Shown piece by piece: positions 172 to 43,829 of a stretch of 46,343 nt of DNA. Numbering within the stretch: the stretch's first letter is position 1; each line of letters begins with the position of its first letter. The position numbers and the translations under genes were made by a program. This DNA is from a virus: the UHGV virus genome UHGV-0181016; one strand, written 5' to 3'. The notes under the pieces were generated by a model. It saw nothing but the letters and a program-made list of their open reading frames with translations. It was not told the origin of the DNA and did no database searches.

Positions 172-235
172 CTTTTCCGTTATGGTACAATCTACGTCAA
201 TAAGTATTGACTAAGTGATGTAGAAACGTCAAGAT
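172..235. promoter_or_regulatory. Divergent promoter region. TTGACGTAGATTG sits on the minus strand (195..200 is TTGACG) and TTGACT at 207..212 on the plus strand.
   Basis: The same TTGACGTAGATTG box occurs at the 3109 and 36209 promoters. The -10 elements here are weak. Confidence 0.3.
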
Positions 236-3108: not shown

Positions 3109-3137
3109 TTGACGTAGATTGATCGGTGGTGCATAGT
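3109..3137 (+). promoter_or_regulatory. sigma70-type promoter, TTGACG-N17-CATAGT, a member of the conserved phage promoter family
   Basis: TTGACGTAGATTG is followed by GGTGGTG in the spacer. An inverted ATCTACAT lies downstream. It sits in the non-coding gap between diverging operons. Confidence 0.5.
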
Positions 3138-3281
3138 ATCTACATCAAGCGATGAGTGAGGAATAAGAGATGGGAATGTACATAGAATTGGTTTTGAAGT
3201 GTCAAATCAAGGGCGTGCATTGGTTGGACTTGGTATGAAGAGGAATTGCAGCCTACATTAATTATTTTTTAAGGTTAAATC

Positions 3282-3425
3282 ATGGTAATGGTCAAATTCA
3301 AAGAAAACGGACGCTGCGGAGTGTTCAATCTTGAGCAAATCAAAATCCGTCCGTGCTGCAAGGTGGTTGCGCCATTTGGTCTGGTGCAGATGCGCGAAGT
3401 TGAGATTGTTGAATACATTAAGTGA
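3282..3425 (+). CDS. hypothetical protein, 47 aa
   Basis: AAGG lies 8 nt upstream of the ATG. This is the first ORF after the promoter. Confidence 0.3.
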   Translation: MVMVKFKENGRCGVFNLEQIKIRPCCKVVAPFGLVQMREVEIVEYIK

Positions 3426-3589
3426 GGTTGGTGATGACTCAGCGCGAAGTTTACAGACTATGCTCGCGGCACTCCAGCAACTACTGGAAATCTACGACGA
3501 CCACTCCGGAAAAGTCTGGACAACATCAAGCAAGCGTCGCGCTCTGGATAATGCGCGTGCGGCGGTTAATAAGGCATTGGGAGAATAAA

Positions 3590-4075
3590 ATGAAACAATG
3601 TGATCTTTTTCGTGTTCTTAGTTATAACCCTGAATCTGGTGAATTCACTTGGATTAAATCAAGAAGACATGGGTTTAGCGGTAGAAAAGCTGGGACGATA
3701 AATGGGAAAGGTTACATACAGATCTGTATTGATGGAAAGCTTTATCTTGCGCACAGGCTTGCTCTTCTATACGTGACAGGAGAGATGCCAAAGGAGGTTG
3801 ATCATATTAACAGGGTGAGAGATGACAATAGATTATGCAACTTAAGGCCATGCACTTCATCTGAAAATAAGCACAACAAGGATATCACATCCAGAAACAA
3901 AACAGGGATAAAGGGCGTCAGCTGGTATCCTGCCGGAAATTCATGGCGAGTAAGGATATGCGTAAATAAAACACAGATTCATCTGGGCTACTACGAAGAC
4001 ATTGAGCTGGCAGAGCTTGTGTCGCAAGAGGCGAGAATTAAATACGCAGGAGATTTTAATTATGAAGCTTATTGA
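3590..4075 (+). CDS. HNH homing endonuclease with a C-terminal AP2-like DNA-binding domain. An alternative in-frame start at 3434 is possible.
   Basis: Motifs are GYIQICIDGKLYLAHRLALLY, EVDHINRVRDDNRLCNLRPCTSSEN for the HNH fold and GIKGVSWYPAGNSWRVRI for AP2. GGGAGA lies 6 nt upstream of the ATG at 3590. An overlapping frame-1 ORF ends at 3588. Confidence 0.7.
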   Translation: MKQCDLFRVLSYNPESGEFTWIKSRRHGFSGRKAGTINGKGYIQICIDGKLYLAHRLALLYVTGEMPKEVDHINRVRDDNRLCNLRPCTSSENKHNKDITSRNKTGIKGVSWYPAGNSWRVRICVNKTQIHLGYYEDIELAELVSQEARIKYAGDFNYEAY

Positions 4076-31728: not shown

Positions 31729-31768
31729 CCTGAATTTGACTGATGTTGATTATATCATCTCAGTGGTG

Positions 31769-31797
31769 TTGACACCTGTTAGGTGGTGATGTAGATT
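31769..31797 (+). promoter_or_regulatory. family promoter, TTGACA-N17-TAGATT
   Basis: The sequence reads gtgTTGACAcctgttaggtggtgatgTAGATT. Confidence 0.55.
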
Positions 31798-31836
31798 CAA
31801 GTCATCGAAACGAGTGATGAATGAATGAGGTGAGTT

Positions 31837-32130
31837 ATGAAAATTAAAATGTTGATTGCGTCTGCACTATTGGTTTCTTCTTTCTCTGCTGTCGCAACAT
31901 CAGAGGTGTGCAAGAACATTGGCGACATCGCATTAAACACGGCTGAAGTTCGCGATAATGGCGTCAGTAAAAATCTTGCAGAGGTGGTAGTAAAAGGCTC
32001 GGCAAAAAACAATGAATCAGCAGAAATAATCGGCCTTGCTATCGTAGAAATGGTTTATGCGCGCAAGGATATGACAAAAGAGCAATTGCGTGATGTGGCT
32101 GTTTCTTTGTGCGAAAAGCAAGGGATGTAA
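31837..32130 (+). CDS. secreted (signal-peptide) moron protein, 97 aa
   Basis: The N-terminus MKIKMLIASALLVSSFSAVATSE is a Sec signal with an AVA cleavage site. There is a single Cys pair. Confidence 0.5.
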   Translation: MKIKMLIASALLVSSFSAVATSEVCKNIGDIALNTAEVRDNGVSKNLAEVVVKGSAKNNESAEIIGLAIVEMVYARKDMTKEQLRDVAVSLCEKQGM

Positions 32131-32139
32131 GGCTCTGCC

Positions 32140-32283
32140 ATGAACGAGCAAACAAAAGCTGACCTGATTTTCTACACTGAACTGTATGTTGATGCGGGTT
32201 ACGATTACGAAGAAGCTGAACGCATGGCGAAAGATTTGCTTCGTGTGATTGGTGTGATTTTTGATGAGGATAAGGTGATATGA
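32140..32283 (+). CDS. hypothetical acidic protein, 47 aa
   Basis: AAGG lies 7 nt upstream. An ATGA overlap joins it to the next gene. Confidence 0.35.
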   Translation: MNEQTKADLIFYTELYVDAGYDYEEAERMAKDLLRVIGVIFDEDKVI

Positions 32284-32480
32284 GCCAGTGGATTAGGTGT
32301 AGTGAGCGGATGCCTGAAGATGGAGAGATGGTTCTTACATCATTTCGTGGTGTCGTTAGAACTGCGGTATGTAAAGTTGTCGATAACATTGGCAGCAAGA
32401 TATTTGTTAGTGAATTAGACCGCTGTCACGGAATTCCAGCCACCCATTTGGCTAAATCACCAGAGCCACCACAAGAATAA
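32280..32480 (+). CDS. hypothetical protein, 66 aa, DUF551-like
   Basis: ORF, the last gene before the terminator. Confidence 0.4.
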   Translation: MSQWIRCSERMPEDGEMVLTSFRGVVRTAVCKVVDNIGSKIFVSELDRCHGIPATHLAKSPEPPQE

Positions 32481-32484
32481 AATA

Positions 32485-32510
32485 AAGCCCCTTTCGGGGC
32501 TTTTTCTTTA
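32485..32510. terminator. terminator with the AAAGCCCCTTTCGGGGCTTTTT family hairpin
   Basis: Hairpin identical to the one at 28081. Bidirectional context. Confidence 0.65.
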
Positions 32511-33227: not shown

Positions 33228-33278
33228 TTCGATCTCCGAATTGTGTTAGCTGCTAACGTGGTGATTATATCACAGGTG

Positions 33279-33307
33279 TTGACAGTGATTATTTTGTGGT
33301 GTAGATT
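33279..33307 (+). promoter_or_regulatory. family promoter, TTGACA-N17-TAGATT, driving a non-coding RNA and tRNA unit
   Basis: The sequence reads caggtgTTGACAgtgattattttgtggtgTAGATT. Confidence 0.55.
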
Positions 33308-33319
33308 TGGATTTAACAG

Positions 33320-33696
33320 AGATTGGCTCCATGATTTCATTTAATTACAGCCACTCCTTCAATTAAAATTAGCGGTCGAGAGACGCCGGACGCGTAACCG
33401 GCACACAACAGGTAAGAGTATTGGCGCATATCAGTGGAACTCGAACCCATTGTGCAGGCGACACAGACGTGTGTTTCAGTGCTCTTTCCGTTGTGGTGGA
33501 TGCGTAGACTGATACGCTATAAAAATGCGGCGAATCCAGTACGTAAACTCGTGCCGTTTCGCACCTAATCCGGAGATCAGTACCGGCCACACAACACTTA
33601 ATATCCAGCATTATCGCAATCATATGTAGGGGTATGTATGGGTTACGGCGCTGGATGTTAAGAAAGCACGCTGGCAATGCTTAAACCAGCACTTAT
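33320..33696 (+). ncRNA. structured non-coding leader upstream of tRNA-Met. It has multiple hairpins and direct repeats.
   Basis: There is no plausible ORF. Hairpins include GCCGGacgcgtaaCCGGC, ACACAgacgTGTGT, GTGCcgtttcGCAC and CCAGC...GCTGG. The repeat CCGGC(C)ACACAACA occurs twice. Confidence 0.3.
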
Positions 33697-33773
33697 GGAC
33701 GCGTAGCTTAAGTGGTTAAAGCAACCGACTCATAATCGGCTGATTGAAGGTTCAAATCCGTCCGCGTCCACCA
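33697..33773 (+). tRNA. tRNA-Met (anticodon CAT) with an encoded CCA. There is one mismatch in the anticodon stem and one in the T stem.
   Basis: Manual cloverleaf gives acceptor GGACGCG/CGCGTCC, D-arm GCTT-AAGTGGTTA-AAGC, anticodon loop CTCATAA and T-loop TTCAAAT. A downstream terminator hairpin follows. Confidence 0.55.
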
Positions 33774-34915: not shown

Positions 34916-35304
34916 TTACACTTACTCCCACGCACAACAGCAAACCACGGCTTACCGCTTCCGTCAGGGTCTTCCACCAGATCGCCAGTGCATCCTGCTG
35001 TGTCCAGTAGTTTCATCTGATTGTACAGCGCCACCCACGGCTTGCTGCCATACGCGAATGATTGTGATGCGCCAGATGGTGCGCTCTGGCTGGTGACGTA
35101 GCGCCCGGCGGTATTTGCGCTAATCAGGATTGAAGCCCACAGCATAATCGCATTTTGTCGGCATTCATCATTTGGATAGTTCAGTTCAAGGCATTCACTG
35201 ATTGATGCCACAAGGCACAGAATGCCAGACGCATCCGTCGTGGTGATGGTCATCCCGCGCGATGCCATCTGGCTTACTAATTCTTCAGGTGTTGGTGCTG
35301 CCAT
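34912..35304 (-). CDS. head-tail connector (gp6-like) protein
   Basis: Size and synteny only. The start at M13 is inferred. Confidence 0.4.
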   Translation of the reverse strand: MAAPTPEELVSQMASRGMTITTTDASGILCLVASISECLELNYPNDECRQNAIMLWASILISANTAGRYVTSQSAPSGASQSFAYGSKPWVALYNQMKLLDTAGCTGDLVEDPDGSGKPWFAVVRGSKCK

Positions 35305-35569
35305 TTTTCTTCGACTCCCGTACCTTCCACCACATTTCAAACAGGTTCTTTATTACCAGAGACAGAGCGCCAAGAATTGACGCTACTGCCGCCCACTCTG
35401 TCAGGCTATGTGGAATCATAGCCTCAAAATAAGATTGCGCGACAGGCGTTTGCTCTGCAACTTTCAGGCCGATGCCAGTGCCAATAGAAGCATATCCAGC
35501 CTTATCAATCACCTGCCCTGCCGTTCCGCTTATGATCTGCTCTGCGGCCTGCCTTAATGCTCCGTTCAT
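35285..35569 (-). CDS. membrane protein, 94 aa, with a C-terminal TM
   Basis: It carries the hydrophobic helix AAVASILGALSLVI. Confidence 0.4.
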   Translation of the reverse strand: MNGALRQAAEQIISGTAGQVIDKAGYASIGTGIGLKVAEQTPVAQSYFEAMIPHSLTEWAAVASILGALSLVIKNLFEMWWKVRESKKNGSTNT

Positions 35570-35601
35570 TGTGCGTCTCGCTGATGATATGTTTCCAGCA
35601 C

Positions 35602-36042
35602 TTATAGATTTGAATCAGCGAAAAAACGATGGCGACCACGCCAAGAATAATGTCCAATTTCGCCGCCCCATTTAAAAGTGATGGAAAGGATGAACAGATG
35701 GATGCCGATAATAATAAATGCGTACTGCGCATGAAGCGGCGTTTCTACAGGCGTGATAAATTCCCATACGAATGACTCTATCGCCACCAGCCATTCGTAA
35801 AGGCTCATCGTCAGCACGCAGAGCGCCATCTTTGTACTTTTACGCAGCGCAATAGCTGGAAACAACCAGACCATAGACTGCGCAAGGTAATACAGATATT
35901 CGGCGGGAAATGAATCAACAAGCACCCATCCAAGATACACAGACATCACCATTGCCGGAACGAACACCAGAAACGCAACCATGCCAGTGCAGGCGAAACC
36001 CAGCACATACATGATCATGATGGCAACATCTGCGCCGAACAT
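35602..36042 (-). CDS. polytopic membrane protein, about 4 TM
   Basis: It has four hydrophobic helices. Confidence 0.4.
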   Translation of the reverse strand: MFGADVAIMIMYVLGFACTGMVAFLVFVPAMVMSVYLGWVLVDSFPAEYLYYLAQSMVWLFPAIALRKSTKMALCVLTMSLYEWLVAIESFVWEFITPVETPLHAQYAFIIIGIHLFILSITFKWGGEIGHYSWRGRHRFFADSNL

Positions 36043-36044
36043 TA

Positions 36045-36164
36045 TTTCTTACCGCGTGATGGTGAGCGAGTGGAACCGTTTGGCTTCACTGCGCCAGTTT
36101 TGCCGCCAGTTTTGATATTTCCAGTAGCGCGTGAACGAGAAGGCGAATTGGTGGAACCCATGTT
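36045..36164 (-). CDS. small, highly basic, disordered protein of 39 aa
   Basis: The translation is MGSTNSPSRSRATGNIKTGGKTGAVKPNGSTRSPSRGKK. AGGAG lies 8 nt upstream. Confidence 0.4.
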
Positions 36165-36191
36165 TAAATCTCCTGTTGTTTGATTAGCATG

Positions 36192-36200
36192 ATTTTAGCA
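36192..36200 (-). promoter_or_regulatory. extended -10 promoter on the minus strand, TGCTAAAAT, for the connector and tail operon
   Basis: TGnTAAAAT lies about 30 nt upstream of the ATG at 36164. Confidence 0.4.
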
Positions 36201-36208
36201 TATTCCTG

Positions 36209-36237
36209 TTGACGTAGATTGGTGGCGCGTTTATAGT
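36209..36237 (+). promoter_or_regulatory. family promoter, TTGACG-N17-TATAGT, driving the ParB / Dam / clamp island
   Basis: The sequence reads cctgTTGACGTAGATTGgtggcgcgttTATAGT. Confidence 0.55.
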
Positions 36238-36278
36238 TAGTGACGTAGAAACAACAATAAATGTTAGAGGTAATGAAG

Positions 36279-36755
36279 ATGAGTGAATCATGGTCAGTTC
36301 CATTTCCAGATGCTAAAACAGAGTTCAACGGCATGCCTGTTTACTGGAGGTATTTTGAAACAGTCGAAAGTGACGGTATCAAAATAATTTCTCAGCAGTT
36401 CATTGCTTTTCACCAGACGGCTTACTATGCATGGATAGCTCCAGCCCACTGGTTCAAAATATACAATCATGAACGTGATATTCCTCGCTGGCTTGCGGAG
36501 TGGAAAGATAAGAAAAATAGATATGCAATCAAGAAAATTGCTAAGTCAGCAGAACGATCTTATGCGTTTAAATCTCAGCAACTAGCGCTTGAAAGCTTGT
36601 TGCGTAGAAAGAAATATCACTTGATGAGATTAAAACAGGATATAGCCGTAATCACAACTGTTGTTGATGAATTGAAAAAAATAGACATATCAAAACCTGT
36701 TATTAGCTACAACCTCGGTCACAACTCGGAAACAGAAAATTGGATTTTTGATTAA
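36279..36755 (+). CDS. hypothetical protein, 158 aa, Trp/Tyr-rich with a basic C-terminus
   Basis: GAGGT lies 8 nt upstream of the ATG at 36279. Confidence 0.45.
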   Translation: MSESWSVPFPDAKTEFNGMPVYWRYFETVESDGIKIISQQFIAFHQTAYYAWIAPAHWFKIYNHERDIPRWLAEWKDKKNRYAIKKIAKSAERSYAFKSQQLALESLLRRKKYHLMRLKQDIAVITTVVDELKKIDISKPVISYNLGHNSETENWIFD

Positions 36756-36766
36756 TAGGATAAACA

Positions 36767-37576
36767 ATGAAAACCCTAAGCAAAATCTATTCAGACAAAG
36801 AAACGCGTAACGGCATCGTTGTTAACAAAACCTATCTCGTTCCAGTGGAGCAAATCTATCTGGAGCCGGGATATAACATCCGTGAAGCAGATGAACAACA
36901 CGTTGAATATTTCGCTCAGTGCTGGGAATCAGGTCAGCCATTACCAGCATTAACAGTTATCCCAGACGAGAAGGGAATCCGCATTCTTGATGGTCAGCAC
37001 CGCTATCTCGGCGCATTGCGTGCCATTGAGCGTGGTGCGCCAATCGTTCGCATTGAGTGTAAGGATTTCACTGGCGACGAGGCTGATAAAATTGCCTTCA
37101 TGGTGTCATCAAGTCAGGGTAAGCAGCTTGACCCGTTTGAACGTGCAAAGGCTTACACGCGACTGAAAGGCTTTGGCTGGACGAATGAAGAAATCGCAAA
37201 AAAGGTAGGTCGCTCAGTATCTGACGTGCAAATGCATCTCTCGCTGGGTGACGTGCCAGATGAAGTAAAAGCGCGCATCAGTGCAGGACAAATCAGCTAT
37301 GCAAATGCCGTAGCAGTAACGCGTGAGCATGGAGATGATGCGGTTAAAGTTATCGATGAGGCAGTAGAGGAAGCAAAGGCGCAAGGTAAGGATAAGGTCA
37401 CAGCAAAGGTGCTGAAGTCGAAAAAGATTAAGCCAGTTGACCGCCTGATTGAGTTATTGAAGCCAGCGGACCATGTGATTCTACCTGCCGGTCATGTGGT
37501 GGCAGAGGATGAGGAGTTTATCCAGATTCCTGTTGCTGATATTCACGAGGTTATAGCAATTCTGGAGAAGATGTGA
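36767..37576 (+). CDS. ParB-like protein (ParB/Srx N-terminal domain plus HTH)
   Basis: ILDGQHRYLGAL is the ParB-box GxxR-type motif. An HTH WTNEEIAKKVGRSVSDV follows. Confidence 0.75.
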   Translation: MKTLSKIYSDKETRNGIVVNKTYLVPVEQIYLEPGYNIREADEQHVEYFAQCWESGQPLPALTVIPDEKGIRILDGQHRYLGALRAIERGAPIVRIECKDFTGDEADKIAFMVSSSQGKQLDPFERAKAYTRLKGFGWTNEEIAKKVGRSVSDVQMHLSLGDVPDEVKARISAGQISYANAVAVTREHGDDAVKVIDEAVEEAKAQGKDKVTAKVLKSKKIKPVDRLIELLKPADHVILPAGHVVAEDEEFIQIPVADIHEVIAILEKM

Positions 37577-38304
37577 TGATCATAAATGAAGATGTGAAAC
37601 TAATTCATGGTGATTGCCTTGAAGTTATGAAGTCTATTCCCGATGGTAGCATTGATTTGATTTTGTGTGACCTTCCCTATGGCACCACGGCCTGCAAATG
37701 GGACAGCATTATTCCGCTCGATAAGCTGTGGGGCGAGTATCTGCGAGTTGCGAAGTGCAATGCGGCGATCTTGCTCACTGCGCAGGCACCTTTTGACAAG
37801 GTGTTATGGGCCTCGATGCCGCGCCTGTTCCGCTACGAGTGGATCTGGGAGAAGACGCACCCGACAGGGCATCTGAACGCAAAGAAAATGCCGATGAAGG
37901 CGCATGAAAATGTGCTGGTTTTCTACCGCAAGCTGCCGACGTACAACCCGAAGATGACCATCGGGCATAAACGGAAGACGGCTACCAAGAGGGAGGATAT
38001 GACGCCGGTGTACGGCAAACAGTGTTTTTCACCCCTGGAGTATGATTCTACCGATCGGTATCCCAGGAGCGTCCAGCTGTTTGCGAGCGACAAGCAGCGC
38101 TGCGCTCTTCACCCTACGCAAAAGCCGGTCGCGTTGATGGAATACATGGTTGAAACCTATTCCAATGATGGCGACCTAGTTCTGGATAACTGCATGGGCA
38201 GCGGCACTACAGGCGTGGCCTGCATGAACACAGGGCGCAGGTTTATAGGAATCGAAAAAGATGAAGAGTATTTTGAAATAGCAAAAAAAAGGATTTTAGG
38301 GTGA
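37573..38304 (+). CDS. dam: DNA N6-adenine methyltransferase (Dam-like)
   Basis: The catalytic DPPY motif is ILCDLPYGT. SAM-binding motifs IGIEKDEEYF and MGSGTTGVA lie at the C-terminus. An ATGATG overlap joins it to the ParB gene. Confidence 0.8.
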   Translation: MMIINEDVKLIHGDCLEVMKSIPDGSIDLILCDLPYGTTACKWDSIIPLDKLWGEYLRVAKCNAAILLTAQAPFDKVLWASMPRLFRYEWIWEKTHPTGHLNAKKMPMKAHENVLVFYRKLPTYNPKMTIGHKRKTATKREDMTPVYGKQCFSPLEYDSTDRYPRSVQLFASDKQRCALHPTQKPVALMEYMVETYSNDGDLVLDNCMGSGTTGVACMNTGRRFIGIEKDEEYFEIAKKRILG

Positions 38305-38474
38305 GCGCTGAGCAATTTATCGAAAAGCAACTTCGTGCCAAGTTGCCTGACATTAACCAGATGGCAATTGATGCGGCGATTCAGTATTACAAGCGCAATC
38401 AGAGCGCAAAGAAGGGTGGCATTTTCGAGGAATGCCTGAAAGTTGCAAAACAGCACATGATTAAGGTGAAGTGA
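38301..38474 (+). CDS. hypothetical protein, 57 aa, GTG start
   Basis: ORF coupled by a TGATG overlap to the downstream gene. Confidence 0.35.
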   Translation: MSAEQFIEKQLRAKLPDINQMAIDAAIQYYKRNQSAKKGGIFEECLKVAKQHMIKVK

Positions 38475-39013
38475 TGAAACTAAAAATCAGCAAATTATTA
38501 CTTGAGTCAGCGTTAATATTTCAGGCTCGAAATGATGTGCGATATTACCTGAACGGCATCTGCTTCATGCCAGATGGTCGCATTGCATCAACTGATGGTC
38601 GTCGCGCATTCATTGGAGGCAGCCATGACAATAAGCTGACAGAAAACGTGATTATCAAGATTGGCAAGTCACCAACAAAACGCTATGACTACGCCATCAT
38701 TGATACTAAGTCGAAAATTGCAACGTATCATGATGAAGCTGGCGTGATGGTTGGCGCTGGTATCTGCGAAGAGATTGATGGTAGATTCCCTGATATTGAC
38801 AGCGCGATACCAAAGGAAACTAAAGCAGTAGAGGAAATTGGCTTCAATGCTGGCTATCTTGTGGATGTCGAGAAAGCTGCGAAGCTATTTAATCCTAAGT
38901 TCTGTGGTGTTAAATTTGAGCTGAATGGAAATACAAATGCCGCAGTTTGCTGCCTGAAGTCGCCATCTGGAGAGACTGCGAAGATTGTTGTTATGCCGAT
39001 GAGGATTGATTGA
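38474..39013 (+). CDS. truncated beta-sliding-clamp (DnaN) homologue of about 180 aa. It matches DnaN domain II plus the C-terminal partner-binding tail.
   Basis: By-eye alignment to E. coli DnaN, recalled from memory. [28 protein letters not shown] matches [46 protein letters not shown] matches [26 protein letters not shown] matches [21 protein letters not shown] matches AYVVMPMRL. Confidence 0.65.
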   Translation: [179 protein letters not shown]

Positions 39014-39294
39014 TGAGTGCAGAGATGAAGCCATGCAGGCTTTGCGGAGTTAAGCAAAGCGGCGTCGATGAACATAATAATGAATACGAAAAGTTGGTAA
39101 GTCTTATTCTTCGCTCCGGAGATGAAAGGGAGTTACTTGAATTAATTGATATAATGAGGAGTAAGATAATAACATCTGTAACAACATCGGTTGGTAGCAG
39201 CAAGCTGGCATATGAAGACCGCGAACTTTATCATGTTCAAGTCATGTATGACGCAATATCTTTACTGCGTGAAAAGCTAATTTCCAGACAGTAA
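39010..39294 (+). CDS. hypothetical protein, 94 aa, with an N-terminal CxxC
   Basis: ORF, the last gene of the island before the terminator. Confidence 0.4.
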   Translation: MMSAEMKPCRLCGVKQSGVDEHNNEYEKLVSLILRSGDERELLELIDIMRSKIITSVTTSVGSSKLAYEDRELYHVQVMYDAISLLREKLISRQ

Positions 39295-39297
39295 ACC

Positions 39298-39326
39298 AAA
39301 GCCCCTTCACGGGGCTTTTATTTTTA
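39298..39326 (+). terminator. terminator with the family hairpin AAAGCCCCttcacGGGGCTTT
   Basis: Hairpin followed by TATTTTT. Confidence 0.6.
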
Positions 39327-39521
39327 CTCTGCTTTCTTTTTCTTTGTCGTCTTTTCTTGCGGAGTTGCGACTTCGAAAGACTTTTCCAGTTCTGGCATGA
39401 TGCGCAGCTTTGGCAGCAGATGCTCAGCTGGCTCGGTAATCACCTCGCCAAGCTGCAATTCACGAATCTTGCCTTTCTCTTTAACAAAGATTCCGCGAGC
39501 GATAACTTCGTATTTAGCCAT
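39324..39521 (-). CDS. hypothetical protein of 65 aa following the capsid gene
   Basis: ORF. Confidence 0.4.
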   Translation of the reverse strand: MAKYEVIARGIFVKEKGKIRELQLGEVITEPAEHLLPKLRIMPELEKSFEVATPQEKTTKKKKAE

Positions 39522-39540
39522 TATTCACCTCAAGTTCATA

Positions 39541-39564
39541 AAGGGGCTTTCGCCCCTTTTTTTA
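39541..39564 (+). terminator. second, plus-oriented terminator in tandem
   Basis: Hairpin GGGGCtttcGCCCC is followed by TTTTTTTATT. It sits just downstream of the capsid gene stop. Confidence 0.55.
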
Positions 39565-40635
39565 TTACACCGGAGTTTGCGTGCCGTAGCCGTTAAACAC
39601 TTTGGATTTGCCGGAGAAATCGCGGCGAACCTGTAGGCCGAAAGCGGACCACACCATAAAGTTAAAGTTATCGTGAGGGTTGTCACGGGCTGCTGCATAG
39701 GTGGAAACAGGCTGAGCAACGCGCGGACGGATGTACATGTCGTTGCGAACATAGCCAACAAAGTGGTTGCCAGTCAGCAGGAAGTTGGTGCCAATCTTGC
39801 CAATGCGACCATTGCCGAACTGCGTGATGTATTGCTCAACTGTGCCGCCTTTGAAGCCAGCTGCATCAGAATACGGACGCATGAAGCTACGGCGCACTGC
39901 CGGGGAAACCCACAGAGTCACCTGCTCAAATACGTTCTGCGCATCCAGAATAGCCTGGAAATCCTGATTGAAGAAGGTCACGATTTGGTCTGGCGTTGCG
40001 GTTTGCAGGTCGATATTCAGGCCACCTGAAGCGTTCAGGTTAACCTGAACAGTGTTCGGGTGGTTGGTGATACCATAGCCAGTGTAAACGCCATTCACGC
40101 TCAGAGTCTGGTCGCCAGTCAGCAGATACTGCGCCATGTCGGAACGCAGGTTAAAGGTGACGTTAGCCTGATCGTCCAGCAGTGGGTCAAAACCTTCGGA
40201 CTGCATACCCAGCAGTTCGCGCCATTCGCGGCTGTAGCCAGTTTTGAAGATTGGAATCACATCGCCGGTGTAATCGTAGCGGGTTTTATCCAAATCTTCC
40301 GGTTCCTGACCAGACAGGGTGCGGACTACCTTACCGGCATCGGAAGCAATGCGGCTGATTGCCACAGTCTTGCCGATGTTGATGTTTACCGCGATGCCCA
40401 TCAGGTCAGCCATCATGTCCTGACCAGCTTCGTTGCGGAAAACGCGGGTGGTGACGTTATCCACGTCGCGCCAGTAATCTTTCGTTACCAGTGCGGTGGC
40501 GTTCACGCCGTAAGTTTTCGCCAGTTCAGCTTCTGCATTGCAGAACACCTTACGGTCGATGGTGAGGTGTTTCCACTGGTCAGCCACCACTGCGGAGTTG
40601 GCTACCAGGTCTTTGGTAAAAATAATCTTTTCCAT
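39565..40635 (-). CDS. major capsid protein
   Basis: 356 aa. It follows a decoration-like gene and a protease/scaffold gene, matching the lambda C-Nu3-D-E order. Composition is capsid-like. Confidence 0.65.
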   Translation of the reverse strand: MEKIIFTKDLVANSAVVADQWKHLTIDRKVFCNAEAELAKTYGVNATALVTKDYWRDVDNVTTRVFRNEAGQDMMADLMGIAVNINIGKTVAISRIASDAGKVVRTLSGQEPEDLDKTRYDYTGDVIPIFKTGYSREWRELLGMQSEGFDPLLDDQANVTFNLRSDMAQYLLTGDQTLSVNGVYTGYGITNHPNTVQVNLNASGGLNIDLQTATPDQIVTFFNQDFQAILDAQNVFEQVTLWVSPAVRRSFMRPYSDAAGFKGGTVEQYITQFGNGRIGKIGTNFLLTGNHFVGYVRNDMYIRPRVAQPVSTYAAARDNPHDNFNFMVWSAFGLQVRRDFSGKSKVFNGYGTQTPV

Positions 40636-40637
40636 TA

Positions 40638-42394
<1,757 letters not shown>

Positions 42395-42431: not shown

Positions 42432-43829
42432 ATGCCGAAGAAGATGACTATTGATGAGCTCAAAGAAAAGATTCGTAGCGTTCATGGCGAGACGTATGAG
42501 TATGACTTTCATACCTTCCATGGCTGTCACTCACCAATGAAAATAGTATGCAAAAAGCATGGGGAATTCTGGCAAAAGCCATCCAAACACCTTCATGGTC
42601 AGGGGTGTGCAAAGTGCCAACGGGGCGTTATTTCTGTCGATGACTTCAAGTCAATGGCCTCCGCTATTCATGACTGGAAGTATGACTATAGCAAGGTTTT
42701 TTTTGAAGCGTTTTCAAGGGCAAAGATAACAATCGGATGCCCGATTCATGGGTGGTTTGAGCAATTGGCCTACATTCATCTGAAGAGGGGTAATGGATGC
42801 CCAAGGTGTGGGGATGAGAGATCGAGAAAAGCCAAGTTAAAAAAGTTCAGCAATTTTGTTGATGATGCGAAATACGTCCATGGTGATAAGTATGAGTATT
42901 CCCCGAATGGTTTTACTGGTTCTCGAGGCAAGATTAATATCTTATGTCCTACACATGGTGAGTTTACTCAAGGTGCCGCAAATCACCTGGCTGGTAATGG
43001 GTGTCCATCGTGCGCAAGAGTGATGTCAAATATAGAAGCCGATATCCTTGCATTTGTTAAGTCACTGGACCCACATGTGATCAGCAGGGATAGAACAACG
43101 ATAGCACCATATGAACTGGATATAGTCTCAAAAGCCAAATCATTAGCCATAGAGGTAAATGGCACATACTGGCACTCGGAGAAGGCCGGGAAAGATAGGC
43201 TGTATCACAAAATGAAAAGAGAGATGGTTGAAGCGTCAGGAATGAGATTGATAAGCATAAGAAGCGATATATGGAGAGATAAGCGCGAATTAGTAGAGGA
43301 AATAATAATTAATGCCATGGGGGCATCTGAGAGTAGGAAGGTTGACGCAAGAAAGTGCACCATTAAAGATGTATCACCATCTGAATCAAGGGCTTTTCTT
43401 GATAGATACCATGTTATGGGAGGAAGAAATGCCAGTAGGCACTTTGGTTTATTTTGTGGCGGTGAACTGGTATCCGTTATGTCATTTACAGTTAGGAAAG
43501 GTTCTGTTGAGTTGGTTAGATTCGCATCTAAATGCAATGTTCGTGGGGGGTTAACAAAGATGCTAAAACACTGCTCATCAGTTGTTGGTTTTGATGAGTG
43601 TTTCAGCTATGTAGACCTTGATTTGTTTACCGGCAAATCATACCTCTTAGCTGGCTTTAAAGCTGTAAGCACAAAACCCGGATTCGCGATTGTTAACGGA
43701 AACCATGTGGAATCAAGGCAAAAGTGGAACAAGGCGCCTAATGGCATGACTCAGAGCGAATGGTACGAATCTGAAGGTGTAAGCAGGATATGGGATAGCG
43801 GACAAATGAGAATAGAGTGGAGTAAATAG
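42432..43829 (+). CDS. free-standing homing endonuclease. It has three CxxHGxF...HLxGxGCPxC zinc-ribbon repeats plus a PD-(D/E)xK (Vsr/DUF559-like) nuclease.
   Basis: The repeats are CKKHGEFWQ...HLHGQGCAKC, CPIHGWFEQ...HLKRGNGCPRC and CPTHGEFTQ...HLAGNGCPSC. The nuclease motif is ELDIV...EVNGTYWH...K. It is encoded opposite the flanking structural genes. Confidence 0.6.
   Translation: MPKKMTIDELKEKIRSVHGETYEYDFHTFHGCHSPMKIVCKKHGEFWQKPSKHLHGQGCAKCQRGVISVDDFKSMASAIHDWKYDYSKVFFEAFSRAKITIGCPIHGWFEQLAYIHLKRGNGCPRCGDERSRKAKLKKFSNFVDDAKYVHGDKYEYSPNGFTGSRGKINILCPTHGEFTQGAANHLAGNGCPSCARVMSNIEADILAFVKSLDPHVISRDRTTIAPYELDIVSKAKSLAIEVNGTYWHSEKAGKDRLYHKMKREMVEASGMRLISIRSDIWRDKRELVEEIIINAMGASESRKVDARKCTIKDVSPSESRAFLDRYHVMGGRNASRHFGLFCGGELVSVMSFTVRKGSVELVRFASKCNVRGGLTKMLKHCSSVVGFDECFSYVDLDLFTGKSYLLAGFKAVSTKPGFAIVNGNHVESRQKWNKAPNGMTQSEWYESEGVSRIWDSGQMRIEWSK

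What the first reader, a model, noticed from the sequence alone, without database searches (positions are those of the whole stretch)
36192..39330. A six-gene ParB-like / Dam / mini-clamp island with its own promoter and terminator, on the opposite strand inside the head-tail structural operon
All genes from 42394 down to 21515 are on the minus strand and form a lambda/HK97-like late module. At 36209-39326 a plus-strand cassette interrupts it. The cassette has a family promoter TTGACGTAGATTG-N-TATAGT, six tightly coupled genes with ATGA or TGATG overlaps, and a family terminator.
- The six genes are an unknown 158-aa protein, a ParB N-domain/HTH protein, a Dam-like DPPY N6A-methylase, a 57-aa protein, the truncated DnaN and a 94-aa CxxC protein.
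- Just outside it, a minus-strand extended -10 (TGCTAAAAT) restarts the late operon.
- Two tandem plus-oriented terminators at 39298 and 39541 stop read-through into the capsid gene.
This is the signature of a moron or host-takeover island. The specific combination of a ParB-like domain, Dam and a clamp fragment is not one I recognise as a described module.
Basis: partly seen in the sequence, partly recalled or inferred. Interest (0 to 1): 0.7.

Follow-up and report, generated by a model that had tools for sequence, protein, structure and literature searches.

The report
Antisense ParB / methylase / mini-clamp operon
A small, self-contained gene cassette sits backwards inside the head-tail genes of a Skatevirus-like phage, and its most interesting gene is a half-size copy of the bacterial DNA sliding clamp that keeps only the clamp's protein-docking pocket, which suggests the phage uses it to capture host replication or repair proteins.

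Summary
Six tightly coupled + strand genes (36279-39294) lie between the capsid and tail genes, with a sigma-70-type promoter (36209-36237) and a hairpin terminator (39298-39318).

The interpretation needs correcting:
- The phage is Skatevirus-like, not Drexlerviridae.
- About 190 deposited relatives carry the same locus. The core is ParB-like, a 57-aa protein and the mini-clamp, and three cargo slots vary.
- The methylase is beta-class (PF01555, DLPY), not Dam.
- The ParB-like gene is not a moron. Its dN/dS is 0.01-0.02, tighter than the capsid gene, and every examined genome-reduced mutant of phage seszw keeps it.
- The CTP motifs of the ParB-like protein are degenerate (GERR to GQHR, ENLQR to SSSQG).

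The "truncated DnaN" belongs to a large family of roughly 170-215 aa:
- It has 131 cluster representatives at E<=1e-10 and occurs in 257 phage records.
- It lacks domain I and one inner helix, so it cannot form the DnaN ring.
- Its most conserved residues are those of the clamp-binding-motif pocket.

I infer that it is a soluble receptor for clamp-binding motifs. Databases mislabel it as a RusA-like resolvase. Its function is untested.

The parts
36193..36201 (-). Extended -10 (TGCTAAAAT) of the divergent minus-strand promoter that could restart tail-gene transcription
   Evidence: Read directly from the sequence. It is invariant in 8 Skatevirus-like phages, and the divergent Klebsiella phage VLCpiS13f has TGATAAAAT here. 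Function is not tested.
36209..36237 (+). Sigma-70-type promoter of the operon, TTGACG-17-TATAGT. The -35 lies inside the phage-wide motif TGTTGACGTAGATTG.
   Evidence: family D2. Both hexamers are invariant and the spacer varies across 9 phages.
36238..36278 (+). Conserved 5' leader, GTAGAAACAACAATAAATGTTAGAGGT(G/A)ATG. It holds a second GACGTAGAAA motif copy (36242-36251) and the Shine-Dalgarno sequence.
   Evidence: About 31 nt are invariant in 9 phages although the first gene differs between them. The motif is statistically enriched.
36279..36755 (+). Cargo slot 1: a 158-aa basic protein of unknown function (phrog_1636)
   Evidence: Other proteins, including an 86-aa 'anti-restriction protein', replace it in relatives. 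Its dS to NX263 and Bas81 is only 0.08-0.09, against 0.45-0.59 for the neighbouring ParB-like gene, which indicates recent exchange.
36767..37576 (+). Core gene: a ParB/Srx-like N-terminal domain plus a ParB/KorB-type HTH DNA-binding domain, 269 aa. It carries a DGQHR motif and degenerate CTP-binding boxes.
   Evidence: dN/dS is 0.010-0.023. The minimal seszw genomes keep it.
37576..38304 (+). Cargo slot 2: a beta-class N6-adenine/N4-cytosine DNA methyltransferase, 242 aa. Motif IV (DLPY) lies N-terminal of motif I (CMGSGTTG).
   Evidence: PF01555 at 7.6e-30. PDB relatives are CcrM, DpnA and MboIIA. PADLOC model MTase_II at 2.9e-87. The closest phage homologue is only 68.6% identical.
38301..38474 (+). 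Semi-core gene: a 57-aa basic protein (phrog_4439) of unknown function, translationally coupled to the mini-clamp gene
   Evidence: dN/dS is 0.05-0.14. The seszw mutant 30S has lost it without loss of viability.
38474..39013 (+). Mini-clamp, 179 aa. It consists of beta-clamp domain II without its second helix, one further beta-alpha-beta-beta-beta repeat and the DnaN C-terminal tail VVMPMRI. The clamp-binding-motif pocket is kept. Domain I and the ring interface are absent.
39013..39294 (+). Cargo slot 3: a 93-aa acidic protein with a single CxxC
   Evidence: It has no PHROG, Pfam or NCBIfam hit. It is absent from other Skatevirus-like phages. The nearest homologues (58-59% identity) are in a Klebsiella phage and in Kagunavirus, where they are labelled 'zinc finger protein'.
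39298..39318 (.). Intrinsic terminator hairpin, AAAGCCCC-TTCAC-GGGGCTTT. The T-run is strong on the + strand and weak on the - strand.
   Evidence: It belongs to a 5-copy terminator family (D1). Phage Skate has terminators annotated in both directions at the same place.
39540..39559 (.). Second hairpin, between the capsid gene stop and the 65-aa gene. It is followed by T7 on the + strand and by TTTAT on the - strand.
   Evidence: Its role as a back-stop for + strand read-through, or as an attenuator after the capsid gene, is inferred.

Best explanation
This is the accessory operon that Skatevirus-like virulent siphoviruses carry, in reverse orientation, between their capsid and tail genes. Host RNA polymerase probably transcribes it from its own sigma-70-type promoter, independently of the late operon. 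Later it is probably opposed by antisense late transcription.

Architecture (shown). There is a fixed scaffold: promoter and leader, a ParB-like HTH protein, a 57-aa protein and a mini-clamp. Three exchangeable cargo slots sit around it. In this phage they hold a 158-aa unknown, a beta-class DNA methylase and a 93-aa CxxC protein.

Mechanism (inferred).
1. The methylase modifies phage DNA against restriction.
2. The mini-clamp cannot encircle DNA, because it lacks domain I, the dimer interface and one channel helix. It does preserve the hydrophobic cleft where clamp-binding motifs dock. It therefore acts as a soluble receptor for those motifs. It would either titrate or re-route host clamp clients: Pol III alpha and epsilon, the clamp-loader delta subunit, Hda, MutS/MutL and the translesion polymerases. 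The benefit goes to a phage that has a primase and a helicase but for which no polymerase was found among the ten large genes examined.
3. The ParB-like protein is a DNA-binding regulator that the phage needs. It is probably CTP-independent. It may bind the GAYGTAGATT motif that brackets this promoter and other phage promoters.
For: Locus conservation and slot variability.

Promoter: both hexamers are invariant with a variable spacer in 9 phages. Promoter and terminator families.

The mini-clamp is a real family:
- The representative search gave 1064 hits at E<=1e-3 and 131 at E<=1e-10. Of the 150 best, 128 are 165-215 aa long and only 2 are about 370 aa.
- A profile search found 1642 proteins.
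- It occurs in 257 phage records but only 4 plasmids.
- dN/dS is 0.06-0.13.

Mini-clamp fold and architecture:
- The AlphaFold model has pLDDT 96.7 and pTM 0.91.
- The family HMM aligns to E. coli DnaN 136-302, and its third repeat also aligns to 314-366.
- The model has only two long helices.

Pocket conservation:
- The pocket residue list comes from PMC11139829.
- Ten of the 17 mapped pocket residues are among the 20 most conserved family columns. Mean conservation is 0.75 for pocket columns against 0.40 overall, and none of 100,000 permutations reached that value.

Replication-linked contexts elsewhere:
- Between cII and the O-like/DnaC-like genes in lambdoid prophages and in phage yong1.
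- Next to the helicase and a VRR-NUC nuclease gene in phage LIET2.
- Next to a RecT gene, a methylase gene and a DNA Pol III theta homologue in a Serratia prophage.

Own polymerase: among the ten large genes examined with PHROGs I found a primase, a helicase and Sak4 but no DNA polymerase.

ParB-like protein:
- dN/dS is 0.010-0.023, against 0.027-0.065 for the capsid gene.
- Minimal seszw genomes keep it, while the mini-clamp and the 57-aa gene were deleted.
- GERR has become GQHR and ENLQR has become SSSQG.
Against: - No transcript, binding or phenotype data exist for any of these genes. 'Early' timing rests only on promoter type.
- Peptide binding by the mini-clamp is inferred from residue conservation.
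- This window's copy is atypical at four pocket positions. R44 stands for His175, A46 for Leu177, S111 for Arg246 and A112 for Val247. The S111/A112 pair is unique among 120 close homologues. It may therefore bind differently or weakly.
- The mini-clamp is dispensable for plaque formation in seszw, so it is not required for replication.
- No canonical clamp-binding motif was found in the island proteins or in the phage replication proteins, so no phage partner is identified.
- I could not assess the oligomeric state.
- The link between the ParB-like protein and the GAYGTAGATT motif is pure conjecture.
Confidence: 0.5

Rival explanations
1. Classical moron or host-takeover island. In this reading the cassette was acquired horizontally, is dispensable, was dropped into the late operon, and provides anti-restriction and host shut-off functions.
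For: - It has its own promoter and terminator.
- The cargo slots hold anti-restriction genes, N6A and C5 methylases, an HNH endonuclease and a winged-helix gene, and they differ between relatives.
- The methylase and the 93-aa gene have no close Skatevirus homologues.
- The mini-clamp and the 57-aa gene are deletable in seszw.
- Gene 1 is AT-rich at 37.7% GC.
Against: - The locus and its ParB-like anchor are at the same position in every relative examined.
- dN/dS of the ParB-like gene is 0.01-0.02, lower than for the capsid gene.
- The 36-37 kb minimal seszw genomes retain the ParB-like gene.
Confidence: 0.2
2. The mini-clamp is a genuine processivity factor. It would oligomerise into a DNA-encircling ring or arc, for example through pairing of its odd third repeat, and would tether host Pol III to phage DNA.
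For: - It has the clamp fold.
- It keeps the pocket that binds polymerases.
- It lies in replication modules in LIET2 and in lambdoid prophages.
- No phage polymerase was found among the ten large genes examined.
Against: - Domain I, one partner of the ring interface, is missing.
- One of the three expected channel-lining helices is missing.
- Three repeats per chain cannot tile the A-B repeat pattern of a 12-repeat ring symmetrically (my reasoning).
- It is dispensable in seszw.
Confidence: 0.1
3. The ParB-like protein, the methylase and the mini-clamp form a single DNA-modification machine. The mini-clamp would dock the modification enzymes onto replisome components, so that nascent phage DNA is modified at the fork.
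For: Mini-clamp genes recur next to non-homologous DNA-modification genes:
- PF01555 in this window.
- PF00145 in Bas78.
- MT-A70 in a Serratia prophage.
- Nmad5 in Dhillonvirus.
- An N6A methylase in the same module in LIET2.

The PHROG methylase profile phrog_67 is 743 positions long, and this methylase matches only positions 120-344 of it. From my own knowledge, fusions of a ParB N-terminal domain to a methylase are common in mobile elements.
Against: - Many relatives have the ParB-like gene and the mini-clamp but no methylase (Skate, seszw, NX263, Bas81).
- Sciku and Bcep43 have a lone mini-clamp.
- VLCpiS13f has the ParB-like gene and a methylase but no mini-clamp.
- No clamp-binding motif was found in the methylase.
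Confidence: 0.1
4. The ParB-like protein is the phage's late-gene activator or its origin-binding initiator, and the mini-clamp is its co-factor. This would be loosely analogous to late transcription that depends on T4 gp45, or on the Mu C protein with the beta clamp.
For: - The ParB-like gene shows extreme constraint and is retained in minimal genomes.
- It lies inside the late region.
- Homologues sit between the cII-like gene and the O/P replication genes in a Morganella prophage.
- The mini-clamp occupies that same slot in other lambdoid phages.
- Mu C uses the beta clamp for late transcription (PMC12867686, listed).
Against: - There is no direct evidence.
- The mini-clamp is dispensable while the ParB-like gene is retained.
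- No repeated palindromic parS-like sites were found in or near the island.
Confidence: 0.08
5. A partition function. The ParB-like protein would segregate the phage genome as a plasmid-like carrier state (pseudolysogeny).
For: Databases name it 'ParB-like partition protein'. It has an HTH_ParB domain.
Against: - No ParA-type gene lies in the island.
- TIGR00180 scores below its cut-off, at 40 against 58.45 bits.
- The CTP boxes are degenerate.
- The BASEL paper groups these phages with typical small siphoviruses, and the record annotations examined list no integrase or repressor. That they are virulent is my inference.
Confidence: 0.02

Closest known systems
Bacterial beta sliding clamp (DnaN, the Pol III beta subunit)
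   Same: - Sequence homology to domains II-III (E 2.8e-11).
- The same peptide-binding pocket residues and the same C-terminal MPMR tail.
   Different: - Half the size, 179 against 366 aa.
- No domain I.
- One repeat of domain III is missing.
- One channel helix is missing.
- Basic rather than acidic (pI 8.2).
- TIGR00663 scores 27.9 bits against a cut-off of 137.65.
- It cannot make the head-to-tail ring.
Monomeric beta-clamp mutant I272A/L273A, and phage proteins that target the clamp pocket (Twort Gp168, PDB 7evp)
   Same: - Conceptually, both are non-ring forms of beta whose pocket is available.
- According to PMC11139829, the monomeric mutant binds the clamp-loader delta subunit about 50 times more strongly than the dimer does.
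- Phages are known to interfere with the clamp hub.
   Different: - The mutant is a laboratory construct.
- Gp168 is an inhibitor that binds the clamp, not a clamp derivative.
- No natural pocket-only clamp turned up in my literature searches.
ParB / KorB / Noc family CTP-dependent DNA clamps
   Same: It has the HTH_ParB and KorB domains, and its N-terminal domain aligns with Spo0J (1vz0, E 6.7e-13).
   Different: - Box II GERR has become GQHR, part of a DGQHR motif as in DndB-type ParB/Srx proteins. The TIGR03187 hit is faint.
- Box III ENLQR has become SSSQG.
- There is no ParA partner.
- It scores below the TIGR00180 cut-off.
- A CTP-independent ParB-like protein, ParT of plasmid SCP2 (PMC12260392), is a precedent for such divergence.
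Opposite-strand mini-clamp units in other small phages: Nmad5 plus mini-clamp in Dhillonvirus, a lone mini-clamp in Kagunavirus, and Bcep43 gp15
   Same: A mini-clamp gene inserted against the direction of the head-morphogenesis genes. In Dhillonvirus the partner gene nmad5 is deletable, toxic when cloned and linked to Tmn defence sensing (PMC11846954).
   Different: The partners differ: Nmad5 or none, rather than the ParB-like protein and a methylase. Nmad5 is not homologous to the ParB-like protein.
Morons of lambdoid phages (a concept from Hendrix and colleagues; my own knowledge)
   Same: A promoter-to-terminator bounded unit inserted between late genes, with cargo that varies between relatives.
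   Different: The anchor gene is conserved, highly constrained and apparently needed. The locus is fixed across the clade.

Membership tests
Beta sliding clamp DnaN (TIGR00663; PF00712/PF02767/PF02768) | Three clamp domains in a chain of about 366 aa | tested here: not met
   - The chain is 179 aa.
- It aligns only to DnaN 136-302 and 314-366.
- TIGR00663 scores 27.9 against a cut-off of 137.65 bits.
- PF02768 scores 16.7 against 27.
Beta sliding clamp DnaN (TIGR00663; PF00712/PF02767/PF02768) | DNA-clamp fold | tested here: met
   [not shown]
Beta sliding clamp DnaN (TIGR00663; PF00712/PF02767/PF02768) | Head-to-tail dimer ring through a domain I to domain III interface, with channel-lining helices | tested here: not met
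   Domain I is absent. There are only two long helices in what should be three repeats. I could not compute the oligomeric state itself.
Beta sliding clamp DnaN (TIGR00663; PF00712/PF02767/PF02768) | Clamp-binding-motif pocket (subsites I and II) | tested here: met
   - Thirteen of the 17 mapped pocket residues are identical in this copy.
- Ten of the 17 are among the family's 20 most conserved columns, and no permutation matched this.
- Peptide binding itself is not testable here.
RusA Holliday-junction resolvase (the PHROG/RefSeq label for this protein) | RusA fold and family (PF05866) | tested here: not met
   There is no RusA hit in Pfam or NCBIfam. The fold is a clamp. The label of phrog_3007 appears to be an annotation error.
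ParB/Spo0J partition CTPase (TIGR00180; PF02195 plus PF17762) | ParB-type HTH DNA-binding domain | tested here: met
   PF17762 scores 44.4 bits against a cut-off of 22.6, and KorB scores 26.9 against 22.3.
ParB/Spo0J partition CTPase (TIGR00180; PF02195 plus PF17762) | CTP-binding boxes GERRxR and ENLQR in the N-terminal domain | tested here: not met
   - The alignment to Spo0J shows GQHRY in place of GERRY and SSSQGK in place of ENLQRE.
- The same holds across 20 homologues.
- TIGR00180 scores 40 against 58.45 bits.
ParB/Spo0J partition CTPase (TIGR00180; PF02195 plus PF17762) | A partner ParA ATPase and parS sites | tested here: inconclusive
   No ParA-like gene lies in the island. No repeated palindrome was found in or near it. 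I did not screen the whole genome exhaustively for ParA.
Dam (alpha-class GATC methylase, PF02086) | MethyltransfD12 domain, with motif I before motif IV | tested here: not met
   Only PF01555 is hit. DLPY (residues about 32-35) precedes the FxGxG-like CMGSGTTG (about residue 200), which is the beta-class order.
Beta-class N6A/N4C DNA methyltransferase (PF01555) | N6_N4_Mtase domain with a D/S-PP-Y/F-type motif IV and an AdoMet motif I | tested here: met
   PF01555 scores 104.9 bits against a cut-off of 26.7. Relatives are CcrM, DpnA, MboIIA and RsrI. Target sequence and base are not testable here.
Moron (an autonomous promoter-gene-terminator insert that is variably present among related phages) | Own promoter and terminator | tested here: met
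   Met at the level of consensus plus conservation. There is no transcript evidence.
Moron (an autonomous promoter-gene-terminator insert that is variably present among related phages) | Present in some close relatives and absent from others | tested here: not met
   The core is present in all relatives examined. Only the cargo slots vary.

The most novel reading that the evidence does not exclude
Pocket-only mini beta-clamps are a widespread and unstudied class of phage effector. They would be soluble mimics of the sliding-clamp docking site that capture clamp-binding motifs of host replisome, repair or defence-linked proteins. Candidates are the clamp-loader delta subunit, Pol III alpha, Hda, MutL and RecBCD. 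Phages repeatedly place these genes as antisense, separately timed units inside their morphogenesis operons. In Skatevirus-like phages the unit is controlled by, or works with, an essential CTP-independent ParB-like regulator.
Probability: 0.3. Interest if true: 0.75.

Novelty: new variant of a known kind. Interest (0 to 1): 0.55.

Why it matters
The beta clamp is the central hub of bacterial replication and repair and is also an antibiotic target. A natural protein that keeps only the hub's docking pocket would be a new way for a virus to interfere with that hub, or to borrow from it. It would also be a ready-made tool for probing clamp-client interactions.

The family is common. It occurs in 257 deposited phage genomes, including therapeutic-candidate Salmonella, E. 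coli and Klebsiella phages, and it is widely mislabelled as 'RusA-like resolvase' or 'DNA polymerase III beta subunit'. Correcting that label matters for phage annotation and safety dossiers.

The ParB-like gene is more constrained than the capsid gene, yet its function is unknown. That marks an unrecognised core function in this phage group.

The fixed scaffold with variable slots also looks like a natural site for inserting engineered cargo.

Tried and rejected
- First AlphaFold run, using 22 close homologues: pLDDT 51.5, discarded. A diverse 60-sequence alignment solved it.
- Search for clamp-binding motifs in the island and replication proteins: the only match is QMHLSL in the recognition helix of the ParB-like HTH. 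It is not conserved in homologues, so I rejected it.
- The 58-aa gene upstream of the Serratia prophage mini-clamp is a membrane protein and is not homologous to the 57-aa gene here.
- The Dhillonvirus partner of the mini-clamp is not ParB-like. It is Nmad5.
- Rfam found nothing above chance in 35500-40000.
- PADLOC hit only the methylase.
- NCBIfam and Pfam found nothing for the 158-, 57- and 93-aa proteins.
- The supplementary essentiality table of the seszw study is not held. I read the deposited mutant genomes instead.
- Plasmids hardly carry mini-clamps (4 records). A general 'plasmid leading-region' role is therefore unlikely.
- No parS-like repeated palindromes were found in or near the island.
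- Literature searches for DnaN-like, truncated or half-clamp phage proteins returned nothing relevant.
- Palindrome statistics show strong GATC depletion (O/E 0.22). This does not reveal the methylase's target.

Full report
**What is there**

The window is about one phage genome long, 46.3 kb. Between the major capsid gene (39565-40635, - strand) and the first tail-side genes (36042 downward, - strand) lie six + strand ORFs. With the start codons that fit the homologues and the ribosome-binding sites, they are:

| Coordinates | Product |
|---|---|
| 36279-36755 | 158 aa, unknown |
| 36767-37576 | 269 aa, ParB-like |
| 37576-38304 | 242 aa, methylase |
| 38301-38474 | 57 aa |
| 38474-39013 | 179 aa, mini-clamp |
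| 39013-39294 | 93 aa |

The junctions are TGATG three times and GTGA once.

The scan finds one good sigma-70-type promoter, TTGACG-17-TATAGT at 36209-36237. It also finds a hairpin terminator at 39298-39318 and a second hairpin at 39540-39559 whose T-run is strong only on the + strand. A consensus match is not significant on its own: the region has 6 promoter-like sites against 7.7 expected. Two other results make the promoter credible.
- The 13-mer TTGACGTAGATTG occurs exactly three times in the genome, and a 46-nt promoter family has four + strand copies (family D2).
- In an alignment of nine phages both hexamers are invariant while the spacer between them varies. The 31-nt leader is invariant even where the first gene differs.

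The terminator belongs to a five-copy family (family D1). The minus-strand extended -10 TGCTAAAAT is conserved too. The divergent Klebsiella phage VLCpiS13f has TGATAAAAT at that place.

**Where the phage belongs, and how the locus varies**

The relatives are Skatevirus/Deseoctovirus-type siphoviruses: Skate, C1, DS8, swi2, Sf11, IME207, seszw and BASEL phages Bas77-81. They are not Drexlerviridae. 191 phage records match the region, but none covers 80% of it. The best, NX263, covers 70%.

Annotated relatives show a fixed scaffold with variable slots.

| Phage | Gene order |
|---|---|
| Skate | 123 aa, ParB, 57 aa, mini-clamp |
| seszw | 92 aa, ParB, 66 aa, mini-clamp |
| NX263 | 158 aa, ParB, 63 aa, winged-helix 68 aa, 57 aa, mini-clamp |
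| Bas81 | 158 aa, ParB, 86 aa, 58 aa, mini-clamp |
| Bas78 | 114 aa, ParB, C5 methylase (PF00145), 57 aa, mini-clamp |
| DS8 | 'anti-restriction' 86 aa, 63 aa, ParB, HNH, 57 aa, mini-clamp |
| Klebsiella phage VLCpiS13f | anti-restriction, two small genes, ParB, methylase, 57 aa, no mini-clamp |

The window's methylase has no phage homologue above 68.6% identity. Methylases in the same slot in C1 and VLCpiS13f are 62-64% identical. The 93-aa gene has no Skatevirus homologue at all.

Gene 1 shows dS of 0.08-0.09 to NX263 and Bas81, while the adjacent ParB-like gene shows 0.45-0.59. Gene 1 is therefore a recently exchanged cassette.

**The ParB-like protein**

It has the HTH_ParB and KorB domains and aligns with Spo0J, ParB, Noc and KorB structures. 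The two CTP-binding boxes are changed. GERRY has become GQHRY, within a DGQHR motif that gives a faint TIGR03187 hit. ENLQRE has become SSSQGK. The same changes hold across 20 homologues down to 27% identity. It scores below the TIGR00180 cut-off.

It is the most constrained gene I measured. Its dN/dS is 0.010-0.023 against seven relatives. The major capsid protein gives 0.027-0.065.

The CRISPR genome-reduction study of the Skatevirus seszw (PMC9825161) deposited its mutant genomes.
- Mutant 30S has lost the 57-aa homologue.
- Mutant 300S (36,991 bp) has also lost the mini-clamp and the neighbouring membrane-protein gene, but keeps the ParB-like gene and gene 19.
- The same pattern is seen in about ten other small mutants.

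Homologues occur between the cII-like gene and the O/P replication genes of a Morganella prophage, and next to tail genes in phage ECOO78. The anchor of the 'island' is therefore a core gene that is probably needed, not a moron.

**The methylase**

Only PF01555 is hit. Motif IV is DLPY and lies N-terminal to motif I. The nearest solved relatives are CcrM, DpnA, MboIIA and RsrI. It is a beta-class N6A/N4C enzyme, not Dam. I cannot tell its target.

GATC is strongly depleted in the genome (50 observed against 229 expected, O/E 0.22). That is a property of the whole genome and says nothing certain about this enzyme.

**The mini-clamp**

phmmer aligns residues 8-155 to E. coli and Enterobacter DnaN 136-289 (E 2.8e-11). 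Residues 121-179 also align to DnaN 315-366, ending in VVMPMRI against VVMPMRL.

It is not a decayed fragment.
- An exhaustive search of cluster representatives gives 1064 hits at E<=1e-3 and 131 at E<=1e-10. Of the 150 best, 128 are 165-215 aa long and only 2 are about 370 aa.
- A profile search finds 1642 proteins.
- 257 phage records carry one, against only 4 plasmids.
- dN/dS is 0.06-0.13.

A family HMM aligns to DnaN 136-302 (81.9 bits), and its third repeat also aligns to 314-366.

With a diverse alignment AlphaFold gives pLDDT 96.7 and pTM 0.91.
- Foldseek's best solved matches are E. coli beta.
- BFVD holds 180-210-aa structural twins (TM 0.8-0.9) in Pantoea, Serratia, Burkholderia and other phages.

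The model has only two long helices where three repeats would have three. The helix corresponding to DnaN 197-209 is replaced by a loop. Domain I, one side of the ring interface, is absent. The protein cannot form the DnaN ring.

What it keeps is the pocket. I used the published residue list for subsites I and II (PMC11139829).
- Ten of the 17 mapped pocket residues fall among the 20 most conserved of 180 family columns.
- Mean conservation is 0.75 for pocket columns against 0.40 overall, and none of 100,000 permutations reached that value.

This window's copy has 13 of the 17 identical. It differs at His175 (R44), Leu177 (A46), Arg246 (S111) and Val247 (A112). The S111/A112 pair is unique among 120 close homologues.

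The 'RusA-like Holliday junction resolvase' name used by PHROGs and RefSeq is not supported by any test.

**Context of mini-clamps elsewhere**

- In lambdoid elements the gene sits between cII and the replication genes (a prophage; Hafnia phage yong1).
- In a Serratia prophage it ends the early-left operon, after a DNA Pol III theta homologue, an exonuclease gene, RecT and an MT-A70 methylase.
- In Pantoea phage LIET2 it follows the helicase and a VRR-NUC nuclease gene.
- In three other groups of virulent phages it is, as here, an opposite-strand insert in the morphogenesis cluster. In Dhillonvirus 'rolling' it is paired with Nmad5. In Kagunavirus Sciku it stands alone between the portal and head-morphogenesis genes. 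In Burkholderia phage Bcep43 it is gp15.

The Dhillonvirus partner nmad5 is deletable and toxic when cloned, and a point mutation in it escapes the Tmn defence system (PMC11846954). The reverse-oriented placement is therefore a recurrent habit of this gene family, not a peculiarity of this genome.

**How it most likely works**

Shown:
- The unit is autonomous and conserved.
- The scaffold and slots are as described above.
- The clamp fold is present without the ring elements, and the pocket is under selection.
- The ParB-like gene is under extreme constraint and is retained in minimal genomes.
- The mini-clamp and the 57-aa gene are dispensable in the laboratory.
- Among the ten large genes I examined with PHROGs the phage has a primase, a helicase and Sak4, but no DNA polymerase.

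Inferred:
- Host RNA polymerase transcribes the unit independently of late transcription. Late antisense transcription across it may later shut it off.
- The methylase protects phage DNA.
- The mini-clamp is a soluble receptor for clamp-binding motifs and titrates or re-routes host clamp clients. A monomeric beta mutant binds the clamp-loader delta subunit about 50 times more strongly than the ring does, which makes the clamp loader an attractive target.
- The ParB-like protein is a DNA-binding regulator.

A candidate operator is the motif GAYGTAGATT.
- It is four-fold enriched: 21 matches against 5.1 expected, and none of 100 shuffles reached 21.
- It overlaps the -35 of this promoter and recurs just downstream of the -10.
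- At the 3109 promoter it flanks the -10 in the same way, there as an inverted copy.

I have no evidence on which protein binds it.

I cannot decide between decoy and adaptor roles for the mini-clamp. No phage partner with a clamp-binding motif was found.

**Other + strand units**

The late region holds other + strand units of the same promoter and terminator families:
- A 97-aa secreted protein and a 66-aa protein of the kind I recognise as DUF551-like (not tested here), at 31837-32480.
- A tRNA-Met at 33697-33773.
- A 465-aa HNH homing endonuclease at 42432-43829.

**Verdict**

The feature is real and well bounded. As a locus it is already present in many deposited genomes, where it is superficially and partly wrongly annotated. 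No functional study turned up.

The window's copy is a new cargo combination on a known scaffold. The pocket-only mini-clamp is a variant of the sliding clamp that fails the family's defining ring features but keeps its docking site, which is where the interest lies.

I rate interest as moderate (0.55). The mechanism is inferred rather than shown, and the family is common rather than unique to this genome.

Noticed in passing
window 189-198(-), 3111-3120(+), 3137-3146(-), 8068/8091/8113(+), 12431/12448(-), 31788(+), 36211(+), 36242-36251(+): The motif GAYGTAGATT is about four-fold over-represented: 21 matches with at most one mismatch against 5.1 expected. It clusters in intergenic promoter regions, where it overlaps the -35 at some promoters and the -10 (TAGATT) at others. 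At the island promoter and the 3109 promoter two copies bracket the -10. It may be the operator of an unidentified phage regulator.
   Followed up: partly
window 36238-36278 and the homologous stretch in L001-L003 and L013-L016: The 31-nt leader GTAGAAACAACAATAAATGTTAGAGGTGATG is invariant in nine phages, including a Klebsiella phage whose upstream sequence and first gene differ. This is more conservation than a ribosome-binding site needs. No Rfam family matches it.
   Followed up: partly
window 38474-39013 (residues R44, S111, A112): This phage's mini-clamp departs from almost all of 120 close homologues at three pocket positions. At the His175 position 110 of them have H and 5 share R. At the Arg246/Val247 positions none shares S-A. 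This could mean altered specificity or relaxed selection in this lineage.
   Followed up: partly
whole window: GATC is strongly avoided: 50 sites against 229 expected from a maximal-order Markov estimate (O/E 0.22). GGCC is also low (O/E 0.41), and several 6-bp palindromes are absent.
   Followed up: no
window 42432-43829 (+): A 465-aa HNH homing endonuclease (phrog_559, 1.7e-100) is another opposite-strand insert, next to the 429-aa head gene at 41105-42394 (phrog_760). A second HNH gene lies at 3422-4075.
   Followed up: partly
window 31752-32509 (+) and 33262-33773 (+): Two more + strand units lie inside the tail genes, and both use the same promoter family. The first has the promoter copy at 31752, a 97-aa protein with a signal peptide (31837-32130), a 66-aa protein I recognise as DUF551-like (32280-32480; not tested here) and a family terminator at 32477-32509. 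The second has the promoter copy at 33262 and a tRNA-Met(CAT) at 33697-33773. The overlapping ARAGORN 'tmRNA' call at 33388-33773 looks spurious.
   Followed up: partly
phrog_3007; RefSeq records of Skate, C1, DS8, IME207 and others: The mini-clamp is systematically named 'RusA-like Holliday junction resolvase' by PHROG-based pipelines and by RefSeq, although it has a beta-clamp fold and no RusA signal. This error propagates, for example into the feed-additive safety table of PMC12965234.
   Followed up: yes
window 36279-36755 compared with 36767-37576: There is a sharp mosaic boundary. Gene 1 has dS of 0.08-0.09 to NX263 and Bas81, while the adjacent ParB-like gene has dS of 0.45-0.59 to the same phages. 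Slot 1 was therefore exchanged recently by recombination.
   Followed up: partly
L010/L011 (Serratia prophage), 1103-1369: The prophage that carries a mini-clamp also encodes a DNA Pol III theta homologue (PF06440) in the same early operon. That is a second replisome-subunit mimic in one element.
   Followed up: no
window 35285-35569 and 35602-36042 (-): The two genes just downstream of the divergent minus-strand promoter encode membrane proteins, labelled 'moron/membrane protein' and 'lipoprotein'. The 146-aa one was deleted in the seszw minimal genome. It has a comparatively relaxed dN/dS of 0.14-0.35.
   Followed up: no
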